From: Escherichia phage FL08
Strand: one strand, 5' to 3'
Sequence record: PP400785
DNA length: 64,000 nt
Shown here: positions 10,592 through 63,209 of the stretch, in pieces
How the letters are laid out: every line of letters begins with the position of its first letter
How positions within the stretch are numbered: position 1 is the stretch's first letter
The notes under the pieces: model-generated
What the model saw: only the letters and a program-made list of their open reading frames with translations
Databases searched by the model: none
What the model was told of the DNA's origin: nothing
Position numbers and translations under genes: made by a program

Positions 10592-11242
10592 TTATTTTTC
10601 CTTTCTTATGAAGTTTTCTATCATATGTCTATAGCAGATATTAGGATAACCTGCCTTGACAGCTATTTTATTAAATTTTGTGCGCTTAGGTCTATTATTA
10701 TAAACCCATAATTCATAAAGCGCATCATAACTATTCCATATTTCTCCTCGCCTAGGATTTGGTAAACCATATCGAGGTGAATTTTTACCGCTAAATCTTC
10801 CTTTTCGGGCTTTACTCATATTAGCCTTGGCTTCATCGGATATAATTTTACCTTTATGAGCTAGACGCATTTTGGCTTTAGTTTCTTCTGGGGTCTTTTT
10901 GCCTTTAATCCATGACGGCTTGCCATATCTAGGATTATTTTCACCCGAGAAAAGAACAGAGTTTTGGATTTTAAGGGTTTCTATTAATCTACTTGTTAAT
11001 TTAACACCTTTATTATATCGCATTAAATTTACAGCATAATGCAATCCTCTCACATCTGGATATATTTTAGTTAATAATCTATGAGCTATAAAATGCTCAC
11101 GCGCAGTTAACTCAACAAGATTGTTTTTGTCATCTGCTCCTCCTATACATCTAGGAATTATATGATGGCGTTCTTTATATCCGCCAAGATGCCGGCATTT
11201 AGCTTTTGTAATTAAAGCCGAGTAAATTTTTTGGTAATTCAC
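10592..11242 (-). CDS. HNH homing endonuclease (Mob-like)
   Basis: N-terminal HHIIPRCIGG...NLV.LT..EH..AH HNH motif; C-terminal NUMOD-like repeats (NPRYGK, SPRYGL). Confidence 0.8.
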   Translation of the reverse strand: MNYQKIYSALITKAKCRHLGGYKERHHIIPRCIGGADDKNNLVELTAREHFIAHRLLTKIYPDVRGLHYAVNLMRYNKGVKLTSRLIETLKIQNSVLFSGENNPRYGKPSWIKGKKTPEETKAKMRLAHKGKIISDEAKANMSKARKGRFSGKNSPRYGLPNPRRGEIWNSYDALYELWVYNNRPKRTKFNKIAVKAGYPNICYRHMIENFIRKEK

Positions 11243-11313: not shown

Positions 11314-11514
11314 ATGGTACAAAAATTAATGGCACTTGTTGATGCCATAAAAGGTAATAAAAAACGTATAGCTTTTACTATTTCTGCTATGGTAGGAATT
11401 TTACTCTGGAACTTTATTTTATCACCCATTGCAATTGCACATGGTATTAATATTCCAGTAGTTACTCTTGATACATTCGTAGATTTAGCATTTGCTTTAG
11501 TTGGGTTAATTTAA
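11314..11514 (+). CDS. small hydrophobic (membrane) protein, 66 aa
   Basis: Plus-strand ORF preceded by consensus Shine-Dalgarno (AAGGAGG, 5-nt spacer); two predicted TM segments. Confidence 0.5.
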   Translation: MVQKLMALVDAIKGNKKRIAFTISAMVGILLWNFILSPIAIAHGINIPVVTLDTFVDLAFALVGLI

Positions 11515-12539
11515 ATCTTAGCATATTTAGATAACCGCATTTTAGCCATCAACCCCTGTGCAATATTATTTTTCATATATTCCATAATTTGTTCAGGGGT
11601 TGCACCTTCCTTTCTAATCATATCATTAACATCTTTTGATTTCCAGGGAGATTTATCCCAAAACATAACCCTTTCTCCTGCATCAACTAATTTAGTCATT
11701 CGCTTGATAGTGTCAGGGTGACGAGGTTCATTATCTAAAACCCATACTCGTCTATCTTTAAATGGAACAACTTCTAGGTCTAATTGACCACCCGTAATAG
11801 CTATACCATTTTCAATAAAAAGCGAATCTATAGGTCCTTCTAGAACATATACATCACCGTCTTTAACTCGTTCGACTCCATATATTTTTGTTGCCTCAGG
11901 ATAAGCTTTAATGGTGATATATTTTTGAGGAGCATCTTTCTTTAATGCACGTCCTTGAAAAGACTCAGCTTTTCCATTAGCATTATAAATTGGAATAACA
12001 AGACGAGGCTCAGGTATTTCCTTTTTATATGTTCCCGGTGCTATGCTATTAACTAATTTAGGCCATTCGGTTGTAAACCAAAGATATTTCCATTTATCCT
12101 TTGGAATACAACGAGCTTTTACATATTTTATAATTGGATGGTCTTCCGCCAGTTTATCTAATCTAACACATGACGGAAGAGATTTAATTATTTTCTTCTC
12201 AGGTTGTTTAGGAAGTTCTTTAGGTTTTTCTACTGGACGACTTTTACCTTTTTCTTTTCTTATTTCAAAAATATACTCACGATATAAATCGGGTTCAAAC
12301 TCCTTTAAATATATTCCGATTGGTGCATGATAGTTACAGTTATAACAATGAATATTTCCTTCATTATTATCGCCATAATACCATCCACGGGCTTTATTTT
12401 GGTCGGTTTTTGAATCTCCACAAACAGGGCATCTAAACCGCAATTTAAAAGTTGAACTATTATTTACTTGTGTGAATTTAGGTAAATGAGCTAATGCACG
12501 GTATGCAAACTCATTATCAATCCAAGGTATTGATGACAT
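11511..12539 (-). CDS. 61: DNA primase (gp61)
   Basis: 342 aa; N-terminal zinc ribbon CPVCGDS...CYNC; TOPRIM-like core; T4 gp61 size. Confidence 0.9.
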   Translation of the reverse strand: MSSIPWIDNEFAYRALAHLPKFTQVNNSSTFKLRFRCPVCGDSKTDQNKARGWYYGDNNEGNIHCYNCNYHAPIGIYLKEFEPDLYREYIFEIRKEKGKSRPVEKPKELPKQPEKKIIKSLPSCVRLDKLAEDHPIIKYVKARCIPKDKWKYLWFTTEWPKLVNSIAPGTYKKEIPEPRLVIPIYNANGKAESFQGRALKKDAPQKYITIKAYPEATKIYGVERVKDGDVYVLEGPIDSLFIENGIAITGGQLDLEVVPFKDRRVWVLDNEPRHPDTIKRMTKLVDAGERVMFWDKSPWKSKDVNDMIRKEGATPEQIMEYMKNNIAQGLMAKMRLSKYAKI

Positions 12540-12541
12540 TT

Positions 12542-12706
12542 TTACTCTTCTTTTTCTTTAGATTCCTCTTTTTTCTTTTTAGGAATCTGTTCAGGACCTT
12601 TATTTACTACAGCGCCTGACGTTGTTCCAGTAGAGATATTTTCAGGATTACCACCTGAATCTCCAGCTACCATATCTTCTTTGATAAATTCTTTATATGT
12701 TTTCAT
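12542..12706 (-). CDS. small protein (54 aa) with capsid-targeting-sequence-like N-terminus
   Basis: Sub-threshold ORF exactly filling the 61-upstream gap; SD AGAGG; N-terminus MKTYKEFIKE resembles T4 CTS MKTYQEFIAE; Lys/Glu-rich tail. Confidence 0.4.
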   Translation of the reverse strand: MKTYKEFIKEDMVAGDSGGNPENISTGTTSGAVVNKGPEQIPKKKKEESKEKEE

Positions 12707-12707
12707 A

Positions 12708-13064
12708 TTAACCTCTATTCATAAAAGCATTAAAAATTTGGTCATCAATAGATGGTGCAGTAATATTTTCTGCATCATTTAGCAAATCATTAATTTCATC
12801 AGATAGCATAACACATGTACCTTTATTTCCTGTAATTGTTACTGCGCAATTACGAACGTTTTCTTTATTAAATTTTAGGTTAATATTTTCGTAATGAAAA
12901 TCCTTTAATGCTGAATATATTTTTAAAATAAAATTATCTTTTACTACAATAAACCCAACCTCACTATTAAAACGTGGTTCATGGAAACTGTAATAAACCT
13001 TTTCATCTATAAAATCGTATGAAATTTTTTCCATTTTTAAATATGAAAATTCAGAACTATACAT
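12708..13064 (-). CDS. hypothetical protein (118 aa)
   Basis: ORF in 61-41 interval. Confidence 0.45.
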   Translation of the reverse strand: MYSSEFSYLKMEKISYDFIDEKVYYSFHEPRFNSEVGFIVVKDNFILKIYSALKDFHYENINLKFNKENVRNCAVTITGNKGTCVMLSDEINDLLNDAENITAPSIDDQIFNAFMNRG

Positions 13065-57754: not shown

Positions 57755-58228
57755 TTATTTGAACGATTTAACGTACTGAATAGAACCTTTACTATTTACA
57801 AAGACAATTTTACCATTTTTATTATACATGGTAGCAGTACGTTGATAGCCATAAGTTTGTTTACCAGATTGATAACCAACTAATGCGAAATTATCTTCAC
57901 CCATTTTATTCTGTTTAGCGCGAATGCGTTCATGGCCATGTGCCATAAGAACCTTAGCATCACCTGTTGCAATGGATCGACGAGTTTTTTCATCTTCAAC
58001 TGTATTAACAAAATCGTCAAATGAATCAAATTTAGCATGAGATTTATTATACAGTTTTCCATCTACTGCATAATTATATCCTTGTACATCCATCTCAACT
58101 TCTGTACCATCATCCAGTACAGCAGTGATTTTCTGTCCTTTTTTAAATTTCAAAAGATCAGTAAAAGATTCAGCAATAATTTGAGAATTAATAGCTGCTT
58201 CAGTAATAAATTCTTGATATGTTTTCAT
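57755..58228 (-). CDS. internal protein (IP) with capsid targeting sequence
   Basis: N-terminus MKTYQEFITE matches T4 CTS MKTYQEFIAE 9/10; basic 157-aa body; position upstream of regB, adjacent to e. Confidence 0.6.
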   Translation of the reverse strand: MKTYQEFITEAAINSQIIAESFTDLLKFKKGQKITAVLDDGTEVEMDVQGYNYAVDGKLYNKSHAKFDSFDDFVNTVEDEKTRRSIATGDAKVLMAHGHERIRAKQNKMGEDNFALVGYQSGKQTYGYQRTATMYNKNGKIVFVNSKGSIQYVKSFK

Positions 58229-58322: not shown

Positions 58323-58853
<531 letters not shown>

Positions 58854-62691: not shown

Positions 62692-63165
62692 TTATTTGAT
62701 TTGTTTAGCAGACCAAATGCGATCTTTAATAATTTTTTGGATGTCTTCAACATACTCTAGGTCATGAGCATGTGGATTATCTTTGAAACTATGAGCTCGC
62801 GCAAGTTTCTGGCCTTCGGTCTTAATTATCAAAAGTTCTTTAAGAATTGCTTCATACCTAGAGATAATTCCTTTAGCAATATTTTTTTCTTGTGCTGCTT
62901 TAGGGTCAGCCTTAGGAGCAGGTTTACCTGAAGCCTTTGCAAAAGCAGCTCCAGTAGCAACTAAACTTTTCCAGGCCATACTAACTGCATTTCCCGTAAA
63001 TCCTTCCGCTTTCATGTCGCGTGCGAACTGGAATCGCGATTCATCAGAAGCATCTTTATAAGAATATTTACCCGCTGCAATGGCTGCTTTTGCGACAGCT
63101 TGAATTTCGGTGCTAGATGCTTCATTTAACACCGCTTCATTTAAAAATTGAGTATATGATTTCAT
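62692..63165 (-). CDS. internal-protein-like protein with CTS-like N-terminus
   Basis: 157 aa; N-terminus MKSYTQFLNE resembles CTS; Lys/Ala-rich; late promoter TATAAATA upstream. Confidence 0.55.
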   Translation of the reverse strand: MKSYTQFLNEAVLNEASSTEIQAVAKAAIAAGKYSYKDASDESRFQFARDMKAEGFTGNAVSMAWKSLVATGAAFAKASGKPAPKADPKAAQEKNIAKGIISRYEAILKELLIIKTEGQKLARAHSFKDNPHAHDLEYVEDIQKIIKDRIWSAKQIK

Positions 63166-63201: not shown

Positions 63202-63209
63202 TATTTATA
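63202..63209 (-). promoter_or_regulatory. late promoter (TATAAATA) for IP-like gene
   Basis: minus-strand TATAAATA ~35 nt upstream of ATG, directly after terminator hairpin. Confidence 0.55.

What the first reader, a model, noticed from the sequence alone, without database searches (positions are those of the whole stretch)
12542..12706. Unannotated 54-codon gene with a capsid-targeting-sequence-like N-terminus filling the gap upstream of primase gene 61
A sub-threshold minus-strand ORF (MKTYKEFIKEDMVAGDSGGNPENISTGTTSGAVVNKGPEQIPKKKKEESKEKEE) exactly occupies the 168-nt gap between ORF 12708..13064 and gene 61, with SD AGAGG 5 nt upstream. Its first ten residues match the T4 CTS 8/10, which would predict packaging into the head and cleavage by the prohead protease, unusual for a gene in the early replication cluster.
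Basis: seen in the sequence. Interest (0 to 1): 0.5.

Follow-up and report, generated by a model that had tools for sequence, protein, structure and literature searches.

The report
T4 gene 61.1: capsid N-terminus mimic
The small ORF is the long-annotated but uncharacterised T4-type gene 61.1, a conserved 54-residue protein that is a free-standing copy of the cleavage junction and "N-fist" of the major capsid protein, which explains its capsid-targeting look and makes packaging and cleavage a testable, unproven prediction.

Summary
It is not unannotated. It is gene 61.1 of T-even phages (PHROG 1823), and homologues occur in about 1,400 phage records, usually immediately upstream of primase gene 61. 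It is under purifying selection (dN/dS about 0.1-0.27).

The new result is that gp61.1 residues 1-46 are homologous to gp23 residues 55-101 (hhalign probability 96%, E 3e-9). In T4, gene 23 is its only other match. The gp21 cut site of gp23 (FLTE|A) aligns exactly with FIKE|D, and the 25-residue gp23* "N-fist" aligns with gp61.1 residues 11-35. A longer, probably ancestral form (about 150 aa) carries the same hydrophobic-x-Glu junction internally.

Packaging and cleavage are plausible but unproven. The evidence against is:
- The gene is early and has no late promoter.
- The protein was not detected in a T4 proteome.
- Knock-down gave no fitness defect in the laboratory host.
- The leader does not track the internal-protein CTS in phage JS10.
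- UvsW.1, not known to be a head protein, has a similar leader.

I found no paper that discusses its function.

The parts
12542..12706 (-). Gene 61.1 coding sequence: 54 codons plus the TAA stop at 12542..12544.
   Evidence: ORF list and sequence. PHROG 1823 match, E 7e-34, full length. 52 of 54 residues identical to T4 gp61.1. dN/dS 0.09-0.27 against relatives, with synonymous sites saturated.
12712..12716 (-). Shine-Dalgarno AGAGG, 5 nt before the ATG. It lies inside the last codons of the upstream 61.2-like ORF.
   Evidence: Read directly from the sequence.
12677..12706 (-). Leader, residues 1-10 (MKTYKEFIKE). It is CTS-like and also aligns with gp23 propeptide residues 56-65 (..AFGSFLTE). 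The predicted gp21 cut falls after Glu10, between 12677 and 12676.
   Evidence: 8 of 10 identities with T4 IPII/IPIII. Third-best CTS match in the whole T4 genome. BLASTP and hhalign place E10 opposite gp23 E65. Glu at this position in 177 of 183 family members. Cleavage itself is inferred, not shown.
12593..12676 (-). Core, residues 11-38 (DMVAGDSGGNPENISTGTTSGAVVNKGP). It is the paralogue of the N-terminus of mature gp23* (the 25-residue N-fist and the start of the N-arm).
   Evidence: BLASTP 16 of 37 identical with no gaps, E 2e-9. hhalign probability 96.1%, E 3e-9. Gene 23 is the only non-self hit of the family profile in T4 (E 3e-7, next hit 0.42). 12-17 of 28 residues identical in four genera. 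N-fist definition from PMC9958956. Predicted disordered on its own.
12545..12592 (-). Charged tail, residues 39-54 (EQIPKKKKEESKEKEE). A Lys/Arg run (KKKRK-type) follows the core in nearly all family members.
   Evidence: Alignments A1 and A3 and the family listing. Its function is unknown.
11511..12539 (-). Gene 61 (DNA primase), which starts 2 nt after the 61.1 stop. It is the usual downstream neighbour of gene 61.1.
   Evidence: The spacing makes translational coupling possible; this is an inference.

Best explanation
The ORF is gene 61.1 of a T-even (Tequatrovirus) phage, a real, conserved, early-transcribed gene for a 5.9-kDa protein that is predicted to be disordered on its own.

[quoted passage not shown] It contains:
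- the last ~10 residues of the gp23 propeptide, with the prohead-protease (gp21) site hydrophobic-x-Glu;
- the 25-residue N-fist and the start of the N-arm of mature gp23*;
- a Lys-rich tail.

The resemblance to the internal-protein CTS is genuine. It exists because the CTS, gp61.1 and gp23 share the same four determinants before the cut: aromatic at -7, Phe at -4, Ile/Leu at -3 and Glu at -1.

Proposed mechanism (inferred, not shown):
1. gp61.1 uses this junction to bind whatever holds the gp23 N-terminal segment inside the prohead, namely the scaffolding core and gp21.
2. It is carried into proheads in modest numbers.
3. gp21 cuts it after Glu10.
4. This releases a 44-residue, 4.6-kDa N-fist-like peptide with a basic patch.

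The gene is dispensable in the laboratory host. I rate identity, coding status and gp23 paralogy at about 0.95. The overall confidence of 0.4 refers to the packaging and cleavage mechanism.
For: Identity:
- 99.7% DNA identity to Escherichia phage slur07, and 509 T-even-type records match at 90% identity or more.
- T4 annotates the gene as 61.1.
- PHROG 1823 match, E 7e-34.

Real gene:
- dN/dS is 0.09-0.27, with pS 0.6-0.96.
- 1,396 phage records hold a match, against 1,480 that hold the gp23 N-terminus.
- 1,848 clusters match the long-form family profile, which spans both the N-domain and the motif.

gp23 paralogy:
- tblastn against the phage collection hit gene 23 of Acinetobacter phage 133 (E 3e-4).
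- BLASTP E 2e-9, 16 of 37 identical, ungapped.
- hhalign probability 96.1%, E 3e-9, gp61.1 residues 1-46 against gp23 residues 55-101.
- The long-form family against gp23 gives probability 96.8%, E 2.5e-10, and reaches back to gp23 residue 33.
- Gene 23 is the only other hit of the family profile in T4.

Junction:
- E10 aligns with gp23 E65, the known cut site. The removal of 65 residues is stated in PMC9546572.
- Glu is conserved in 97% of 183 members, and P3 is mostly L/I/M/F.
- CTS positions 4, 7, 8 and 10 are the functional ones (PMC9026906), and gp61.1 keeps all four.

Plausibility of core binding:
- gp23* residues 66-105 are disordered and point inwards in the unexpanded head, and the authors think they contact the scaffold (PMC9546572).
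- gp61.1 is likewise predicted disordered.

Dispensability, as for the internal proteins (that the internal proteins are dispensable is my own knowledge):
- CRISPRi-ART knock-down score -0.84, p 0.93 (PMC11879866 supplement).
Against: - There is no TATAAATA late promoter on the coding strand between 10041 and 52193 in the window, or between 15.6 and 45.6 kb in T4. Both internal-protein genes in the window have one upstream.
- The RNA class is early. The protein was not detected in the T4 whole-cell proteome, although Dmd (60 aa), gp61.4, Sp and gp61.2 were.
- I found no virion proteomics report that lists it.
- In JS10 the leader has Val at the targeting position 7, while five internal-protein-type ORFs in the same phage keep Phe.
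- Long forms have no N-terminal CTS.
- UvsW.1, which I know of as a recombination accessory protein rather than a head protein, carries a comparable leader.
- P1' is Asp or Glu here, against Ala in gp23 and the internal proteins.
- The family profile did not retrieve full-length gp23 at E<=1e-3 among 1.84 billion representatives. The homology therefore rests on searches in smaller spaces.
Confidence: 0.4

Rival explanations
1. Cytoplasmic mimic or decoy. gp61.1 is made early and acts in the cytoplasm as a soluble copy of the gp23 junction. It could occupy a host factor or immune sensor that recognises the capsid protein N-terminus, or compete as an alternative substrate with host 'tripwire' proteins that gp21 cleaves. 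On this reading it is one more member of the anti-defence cluster dmd / tifA (61.4) / adfA (61.2).
For: - Early transcription and no late promoter.
- It sits in the stretch that Srikant et al. call a possible anti-toxin-antitoxin island, and they name the other genes of that region as candidates (bioRxiv 10.1101/2022.04.14.488369).
- It is dispensable in a laboratory host.
- gp21 activity is sensed by a CBASS CD-NTase through an LPE loop (PMC12991175), so a competing I-x-E substrate is conceivable.
- It is disordered and small, as many decoys are.
Against: - It is present in nearly all Straboviridae sampled (1,396 records, against 1,480 with the gp23 N-terminus), including the Aeh1 and KVP40 groups. 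Host-specific counter-defence genes are usually patchy.
- No defence system is known to sense gp23 residues 55-101. By my recollection the Gol peptide sensed by Lit lies at about residues 93-122; I did not check this.
- There is no direct evidence of any kind.
Confidence: 0.25
2. Capsid-lattice modulator. The free N-fist peptide, cut or uncut, docks on gp23 capsomers at the sites normally used by a neighbour's N-fist. It would tune expansion, stability, Soc binding or head length.
For: - In the mature head the N-fist contacts four subunits and helps to form the Soc site (PMC9958956; PMC9546572).
- Head-length mutations A66D, A94V and G97S map to the homologous gp23 segment.
- Both paralogues keep the same motif, GD..(6-7)..I[AS].G.[TS][ST]G[AS][VI]...GP, across four genera. 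This suggests a shared binding surface.
Against: - The published cryo-EM maps read here report no unassigned N-fist-like density. The extra density seen under gp24 is helical.
- Few vacant N-fist sites are expected.
- Knock-down has no fitness cost.
- There is no clear same-phage covariation between gp61.1 and gp23.
Confidence: 0.12
3. Primase-linked role. The ORF mainly serves gene 61, either as an upstream reading frame that delivers ribosomes to the weakly initiated primase gene by translational coupling, or as a small replisome accessory peptide.
For: - It lies upstream of gene 61 in every genus examined, with 2-4 nt between stop and start in T-evens and several relatives.
- It is expressed early together with the replication genes.
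- The Lys/Arg-rich tail could bind nucleic acid (inference).
Against: - Purifying selection acts on the amino-acid sequence and there are 18 invariant residues. Coupling alone would not require this.
- A homing endonuclease gene (L024) or two extra ORFs (Krischvirus) can separate it from gene 61.
- This role gives no explanation for the gp23 homology.
Confidence: 0.1
4. Chance ORF. The stretch is non-coding spacer that happens to be open.
For: It is short (54 codons), has no Pfam or NCBIfam match, and the protein was not seen in one proteome.
Against: - dN/dS is 0.1-0.27 at saturated synonymous divergence.
- The frame is kept in 21 IMG/VR loci.
- The family has 50 clusters at 50% identity and 1,848 clusters at 90% identity that match the long-form family profile.
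- It has a good Shine-Dalgarno sequence and is tightly packed between genes.
Confidence: 0.01

Closest known systems
T4 gene 61.1 (NP_049649; UniProt P39228; PHROG 1823)
   Same: It is the same gene: 52 of 54 residues identical, the same position between 61.2 and 61, and the same length.
   Different: Residue 4 is Tyr here and Phe in T4, so the window copy is closer to the IPII/IPIII CTS (8 of 10 against 7 of 10). Residue 26 is Thr here and Ile in T4.
T4 internal proteins IPI, IPII and IPIII and their capsid targeting sequence (Mullaney and Black 1996, as summarised in PMC9026906)
   Same: It has an N-terminal decapeptide MKT[YF].EFI.E ending in the gp21 motif I-x-E, and it keeps functional positions 4, 7, 8 and 10. 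Like the internal proteins (by my own knowledge), it is dispensable in the laboratory host.
   Different: - It is early only, with no late promoter.
- Only 44 residues would remain after cutting, and they are predicted to be disordered rather than globular.
- The body of the protein is highly conserved across the family, whereas internal proteins are hypervariable.
- The leader drifts away from the internal-protein CTS in JS10.
- Packaging has never been shown.
Major capsid protein gp23, residues 55-101 (end of the propeptide, gp21 site E65|A66, N-fist, start of the N-arm)
   Same: It is homologous over 47 columns with the cut sites in register, and it shares the motif GD......NI[AS].G.TSGAV...GP.
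   Different: It has no HK97-fold body and does not match Pfam PF07068. It ends in a Lys-rich tail in place of the Gol and P-domain region. P1' is Asp rather than Ala. Labels such as 'major capsid protein' in some records are misnomers.
Long-form gp61.1 (PHROG 2086; RB43, RB16, Ac42, phage 133, Aeh1, KVP40-type; about 130-166 aa)
   Same: It has the same C-terminal junction, core and basic tail, and the same position upstream of gene 61.
   Different: The long form has an additional ~105-residue, mostly helical N-domain (pLDDT 80-91 for residues 10-70). That domain is absent from T4 and from the window. The T-even leader TYKEFIKE| looks like the remnant of the end of that domain, IFKELPLFE|.
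alt.-1 / alt.-2 of T4 (partial duplication of the 5' part of the head-protein gene alt)
   Same: It is a precedent, noted in the T4 record, for a small ORF that derives from duplication of the first part of a gene for a gp21-processed head protein.
   Different: alt.-1 and alt.-2 lie next to their parent gene. Gene 61.1 lies about 86 kb from gene 23, and its origin predates the split of the genera examined.

Membership tests
T4 gene 61.1 family (PHROG 1823, short form) | Full-length match to the family profile | tested here: met
   phrog_1823, E 7e-34, residues 1-54 against profile positions 1-54 of 54.
T4 gene 61.1 family (PHROG 1823, short form) | Position immediately upstream of primase gene 61 and downstream of the sp / 61.2 block | tested here: met
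   Window order is 41, dmd, 61.4-like, sp, 61.2-like, 61.1, 61. T4, T2 and F26 have the same order.
CTS-bearing internal proteins of T-even phages | N-terminal propeptide of 10-19 residues that matches the CTS, with the experimentally important positions 4 and 7 (targeting) and 8 and 10 (processing) | tested here: met
   MKTYKEFIKE against MKTYQEFIAE, 8 of 10 identical, with Y4, F7, I8 and E10 kept. It ranks third among 4,837 T4 start codons.
CTS-bearing internal proteins of T-even phages | gp21 cleavage motif (L/I)-x-E at the end of the propeptide | tested here: met
   I-K-E|D is present. Glu is conserved in 177 of 183 relatives. Only the sequence is tested, not cleavage.
CTS-bearing internal proteins of T-even phages | Protein physically present in proheads and heads and cut by gp21 | not testable with these tools
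   I found no virion proteomics that lists it. It was absent from a whole-cell proteome.
CTS-bearing internal proteins of T-even phages | Synthesis during prohead assembly (late promoter, or early plus late) | tested here: not met
   There is no TATAAATA upstream within about 39 kb in the window or about 26 kb in T4. The window's two internal-protein genes each have one upstream. The RNA class is early. An early protein could still persist.
CTS-bearing internal proteins of T-even phages | The leader follows the CTS of the internal proteins of the same phage in other genera | tested here: not met
   In JS10, five internal-protein-type ORFs have MKTY[QNK]EFI[TAK]E, while gp61.1 has MKSFKEVMNE. 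Krischvirus is inconclusive, because no T-even-type internal protein was found in the 79 kb examined.
gp23/gp24 major capsid protein family (Pfam PF07068, HK97 fold) | HK97-fold body that matches the family model | tested here: not met
   No Pfam hit even at E 10. Only 47 columns align, all N-terminal to the fold. It is a paralogue of a segment of gp23, not a capsid protein.
Anti-defence genes of the dmd / tifA / adfA cluster | Location in the cluster | tested here: met
   It lies directly next to the adfA-like ORF (PF23813) and three genes from dmd.
Anti-defence genes of the dmd / tifA / adfA cluster | Demonstrated neutralisation of a host defence | not testable with these tools
   I found no report. 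The gene is only named implicitly, among 'other genes in this region', in bioRxiv 10.1101/2022.04.14.488369.

The most novel reading that the evidence does not exclude
gp61.1 would be a living intermediate showing that the T4 capsid targeting sequence is a portable copy of the propeptide and N-arm junction of gp23. On this reading, internal proteins, gp61.1 and the capsid protein are all held on the scaffolding core and released by gp21 through one shared module. The cut product of gp61.1, a free N-fist with a basic tail, would be a previously unrecognised small component of T4-type proheads or heads, conserved across Straboviridae.
Probability: 0.2. Interest if true: 0.65.

Novelty: new variant of a known kind. 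Interest (0 to 1): 0.45.

Why it matters
The gene itself is ordinary: it has been annotated as a hypothetical protein for decades. Three things make it worth a bench experiment.

1. It links the capsid targeting sequence, which is used to load foreign proteins into T4 heads in the T4 vaccine and vector papers retrieved here, with the natural cleavage junction of the capsid protein. This suggests what the CTS binds.
2. It is one of the most widely conserved T4-type genes still without a function. It now comes with a specific prediction: cleavage after Glu10, which would yield a peptide beginning DMVAGD.
3. If it acts as a soluble mimic of the capsid N-terminus, it would be a new kind of early phage factor. 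That is relevant to newly described host sensors of capsid proteins and of prohead protease activity.

Tried and rejected
- Pfam and NCBIfam scans of the short and long forms gave nothing, even at E 10 or E 1.
- A profile search of 1.84 billion representatives returned only family members, with no full-length gp23 at E<=1e-3.
- I looked for the long-form N-domain as a separate gene in T4 or the window. It is absent (best E 0.6).
- Foldseek of the long-form model against viral structures returned only relatives, some inside proteins of 387-913 aa that I could not inspect.
- Same-phage covariation between gp61.1 and the gp23 N-fist in four genera gave no clear excess on the diagonal.
- Covariation of the leader with the internal-protein CTS was negative in JS10 and uninformative in Krischvirus.
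- Recent recombination with ip genes is rejected. DNA similarity starts at the ATG and is explained by codon usage, and the upstream regions are unrelated.
- Literature searches for gp61.1, for CTS strings and for 61.1 together with gp23 found no functional study. One search was wasted on 'dmd', which returned Duchenne muscular dystrophy papers. The Miller et al. 2003 T4 genome review is not held.
- The labels 'putative head morphogenesis protein' and 'major capsid protein' in some records are similarity-propagated and unreliable. The same T2 record calls helicase gp41 a 'major capsid protein'.

Full report
**1. What is in the sequence**

Its local layout, read, is as follows.
- AGAGG lies at 12716..12712, followed by a 5-nt spacer and the ATG at 12706.
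- The stop codon of the upstream ORF (12708..12710) is 1 nt before that ATG.
- The ATG of gene 61 (12539) is 2 nt after the 61.1 stop.

The window is a T-even (Tequatrovirus) genome. The region is 99.7% identical to Escherichia phage slur07, and 509 phage records match it at 90% identity or more. The gene order is 56, an HNH-type endonuclease, 61, this ORF, a 61.2-like ORF, sp, a 61.4-like ORF, dmd, 41, 40, uvsX.

**2. It is gene 61.1, not an unannotated gene**

- T4 (NC_000866) annotates a 165-nt CDS, '61.1', at the same position. Its product differs from the window protein at two residues, Y4F and T26I.
- The protein matches PHROG 1823 over its full length, E 7e-34.
- T2, RB14, UFV-AREG1 and JS10 also annotate it as 61.1.
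- Some records call it 'major capsid protein' or 'putative head morphogenesis protein'. These are propagated similarity labels. The same T2 record labels helicase gp41 'major capsid protein'.

**3. It is a real gene**

- Pairwise comparison with relatives from other genera gives pN 0.16-0.36 against pS 0.6-0.96. Where dS is computable, dN/dS is 0.09-0.27.
- The frame is intact in all 21 IMG/VR loci recovered.
- tblastn finds it in 1,396 phage records, against 1,480 records for the gp23 N-terminus.
- A profile search of 1.84 billion representatives finds 50 clusters at 50% identity.
- A profile of the long form, which spans the N-domain and the motif, finds 1,848 clusters at 90% identity.
- KVP40-type vibriophages also have a gp61.1 just upstream of the primase gene (PMC3468402).

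**4. The CTS resemblance is genuine**

The relevant N-termini are:
- T4 IPII and IPIII: MKTYQEFIAE|A
- T4 IPI: MKTFKEFTS...
- T4 gp61.1: MKTFKEFIKE|D
- window copy: MKTYKEFIKE|D

I scored all 4,837 start codons of the T4 genome that open an ORF of at least 25 aa. The four best matches to the CTS are IPIII, IPII, gp61.1 and IPI, and nothing else comes close.

Experiments on IPIII mapped targeting to positions 4 and 7 and processing to positions 8 and 10 (PMC9026906 section 2.6). gp61.1 keeps all four.

The window also holds two internal-protein-type genes:
- 57755..58228, MKTYQEFITE|A, Pfam DUF7412;
- 62692..63165, MKSYTQFLNE|A.

**5. The main new result: gp61.1 is a paralogue of the N-terminal junction of gp23**

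- The weakest tblastn hit listed in the phage collection was gene 23 of Acinetobacter phage 133 (E 3e-4).
- BLASTP of gp61.1 against T4 gp23 residues 1-134 aligns residues 2-38 with gp23 57-93. There are no gaps, 16 of 37 residues are identical, and E is 2e-9.
- Profile against profile, gp61.1 residues 1-46 align with gp23 residues 55-101, probability 96.1%, E 3e-9.
- With the long-form family the alignment extends back to gp23 residue 33, probability 96.8%, E 2.5e-10.
- As an unbiased check, I searched the gp61.1 profile against every six-frame segment of T4 and the window. It finds itself and then only gene 23 (E 3e-7). The next hit has E 0.42.

The registers coincide. gp23 is cut by gp21 after Glu65 (FLTE|AEIGGD; PMC9546572), and this aligns with FIKE|DMVAGD. 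The 25-residue 'N-fist' that begins mature gp23* (PMC9958956) corresponds to gp61.1 residues 11-35.

In T4, JS10, RB43 and a Krischvirus, any gp61.1 core shares 12-17 of 28 residues with any gp23 N-fist. There is no clear same-phage excess. The duplication is therefore old, and both copies are conserved.

The CTS positions Y4, F7, I8 and E10 fall opposite gp23 F59, F62, L63 and E65. F62, L63 and E65 are invariant and F59 is nearly invariant in the small gp23 alignment. The CTS, gp61.1 and the gp23 junction therefore look like versions of one module. This last step is my inference.

**6. Two architectures**

Short forms of 50-62 aa occur in Tequatrovirus, Dhakavirus, Krischvirus and several metagenomic clusters.

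Long forms of about 130-166 aa (PHROG 2086) put a ~105-residue N-domain in front of the same junction. Examples:
- RB43: ...QIMNE|EMVAGDSGG
- Ac42: ...LPLME|EVVAGDSGG
- L026: ...LPLFE|DMVAGDSGG

Further points about the two forms:
- The N-domain is found in 590 phage records, including deep branches such as Aeh1 and KVP40-like phages. It is absent from T4 and from the window.
- The long form is therefore probably ancestral, and the short form arose by loss of the N-domain. The T-even leader TYKEFIKE| resembles the end of the long N-domain, IFKELPLFE|. Both statements are inferences.
- Across 183 members, Glu directly precedes the core in 177, and P3 is mostly L, I, M or F.
- AlphaFold2 gives a confident helical N-domain (pLDDT 80-91 for residues 10-70) but pLDDT below 50 for the junction, core and tail.
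- The short form has mean pLDDT 59.5 and pTM 0.18, with only a short helix over residues 4-13.
- This predicted disorder matches gp23* residues 66-105, which are disordered and point inwards in the unexpanded head and become the N-arm and N-fist only after expansion (PMC9546572).

**7. Expression and phenotype data from the literature**

- In a time-resolved T4 study the 61.1 RNA is classed 'early' and the protein class is 'NA' (PMC9697503 supplement 4).
- The intensity table of that study lists Sp, gp61.2, gp61.4 and Dmd but not P39228.
- The canonical late promoter TATAAATA is absent from the coding strand between 10041 and 52193 in the window. In T4 it is absent between 15.6 and 45.6 kb. 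The window's internal-protein genes each have it upstream.
- Genome-wide dCas13d knock-down in T4 scored 61.1 as 'Not Fit' (score -0.84, p 0.93). It is therefore dispensable in the laboratory host, and its prior essentiality status was 'UNKNOWN' (PMC11879866 supplement 15).
- I found no paper that discusses its function, its CTS-like leader or its gp23 likeness.

**8. Interpretation**

- Shown: the identity as gene 61.1, the coding status, the family structure, the homology to gp23 residues 55-101 with the cut sites in register, the predicted disorder, the early RNA class and the dispensability.
- Inferred: that the junction makes gp61.1 a ligand of the scaffolding core or of gp21 and a gp21 substrate, yielding a 44-residue, 4.6-kDa peptide with pI about 5. 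I put this at about 0.4.
- Against it: the early-only expression, the non-detection, the JS10 leader (Val at targeting position 7 while five internal-protein-type ORFs keep Phe), the long forms without an N-terminal CTS, and the similar leader of UvsW.1 (T4 MLLEFKQFLYE|A, Krischvirus MISFKRFLVE|A). UvsW.1 is a recombination accessory protein by my own knowledge.

The rival explanations are:
- a cytoplasmic mimic or decoy in the dmd / tifA / adfA neighbourhood (0.25);
- a lattice modulator that uses the N-fist docking sites (0.12);
- a primase-linked or coupling role (0.1);
- a chance ORF (about 0.01).

**9. Verdict**

The gene is already known but uncharacterised. What is new is its nature as a free-standing copy of the gp23 junction and N-fist, which explains the CTS look and gives a sharp experimental prediction. 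Interest is moderate.

Noticed in passing
window 12708..13064 (-): The upstream neighbour is a 118-aa ORF that matches only the C-terminal half (profile positions 113-211) of AdfA, the anti-DarT factor A (gp61.2, PF23813). T4 gp61.2 is 208 aa. This phage, like T2 and RB14/RB32-type records, carries a shortened version.
   Followed up: partly
window 57755..58228 (-) and 62692..63165 (-): There are two 157-aa internal-protein-type ORFs with CTS leaders, MKTYQEFITE|A (Pfam DUF7412, just downstream of the lysozyme gene e) and MKSYTQFLNE|A. TATAAATA late promoters lie at 58831/58844 (upstream of the lysozyme gene e, which precedes the first ORF) and at 63202 (directly upstream of the second ORF).
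   Followed up: partly
window 10592..11242 (-): A 216-aa HNH/NUMOD3 homing-endonuclease-like ORF sits between gene 56 and gene 61, where T4 has dam. No dam gene is present in this interval.
   Followed up: partly
window 11314..11514 (+): A 66-aa hydrophobic ORF on the opposite strand overlaps the 3' end of gene 61 by 4 nt. T2 and F26 records annotate an ORF in the equivalent position and orientation as a CDS. It has no Pfam match, and a terminator-like hairpin lies at 11348..11329 on the minus strand.
   Followed up: no
T4 NC_000866 114210 (+); Krischvirus locus L038:18312-18548: UvsW.1, which the RefSeq T4 record annotates in frame as the C-terminus of UvsW, starts MLLEFKQFLYE|A in T4 and MISFKRFLVE|A in Krischvirus. 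This is a CTS-like leader with an (L/V)-x-E|A site on a protein that I do not know to be packaged.
   Followed up: partly
proteins P0040, P0054, P0058 (metagenomic relatives): In ORFs of 149-251 aa the gp61.1 core and KKK tail are followed in the same frame by a second module. That module begins with another CTS-like string (..NFKQFVEGLE.., ..DFKQFVESLE.., ..GFKAFMEG..) and continues with a domain of about 100 aa.
   Followed up: no
Foldseek BFVD hits to model m6397e9dc0a4e: The long-form domain also occurs inside much larger viral proteins (A0A411BBR2, 672 aa, 42% identity over 146 columns; others of 387-913 aa). I could not inspect the fused partners. A fusion to primase or to a head protein would be informative.
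   Followed up: no
locus L035 (JS10 105284..107850): JS10 carries two tandem copies of the vertex-protein gene 24. This is another example of duplication among gp23-family head genes.
   Followed up: no
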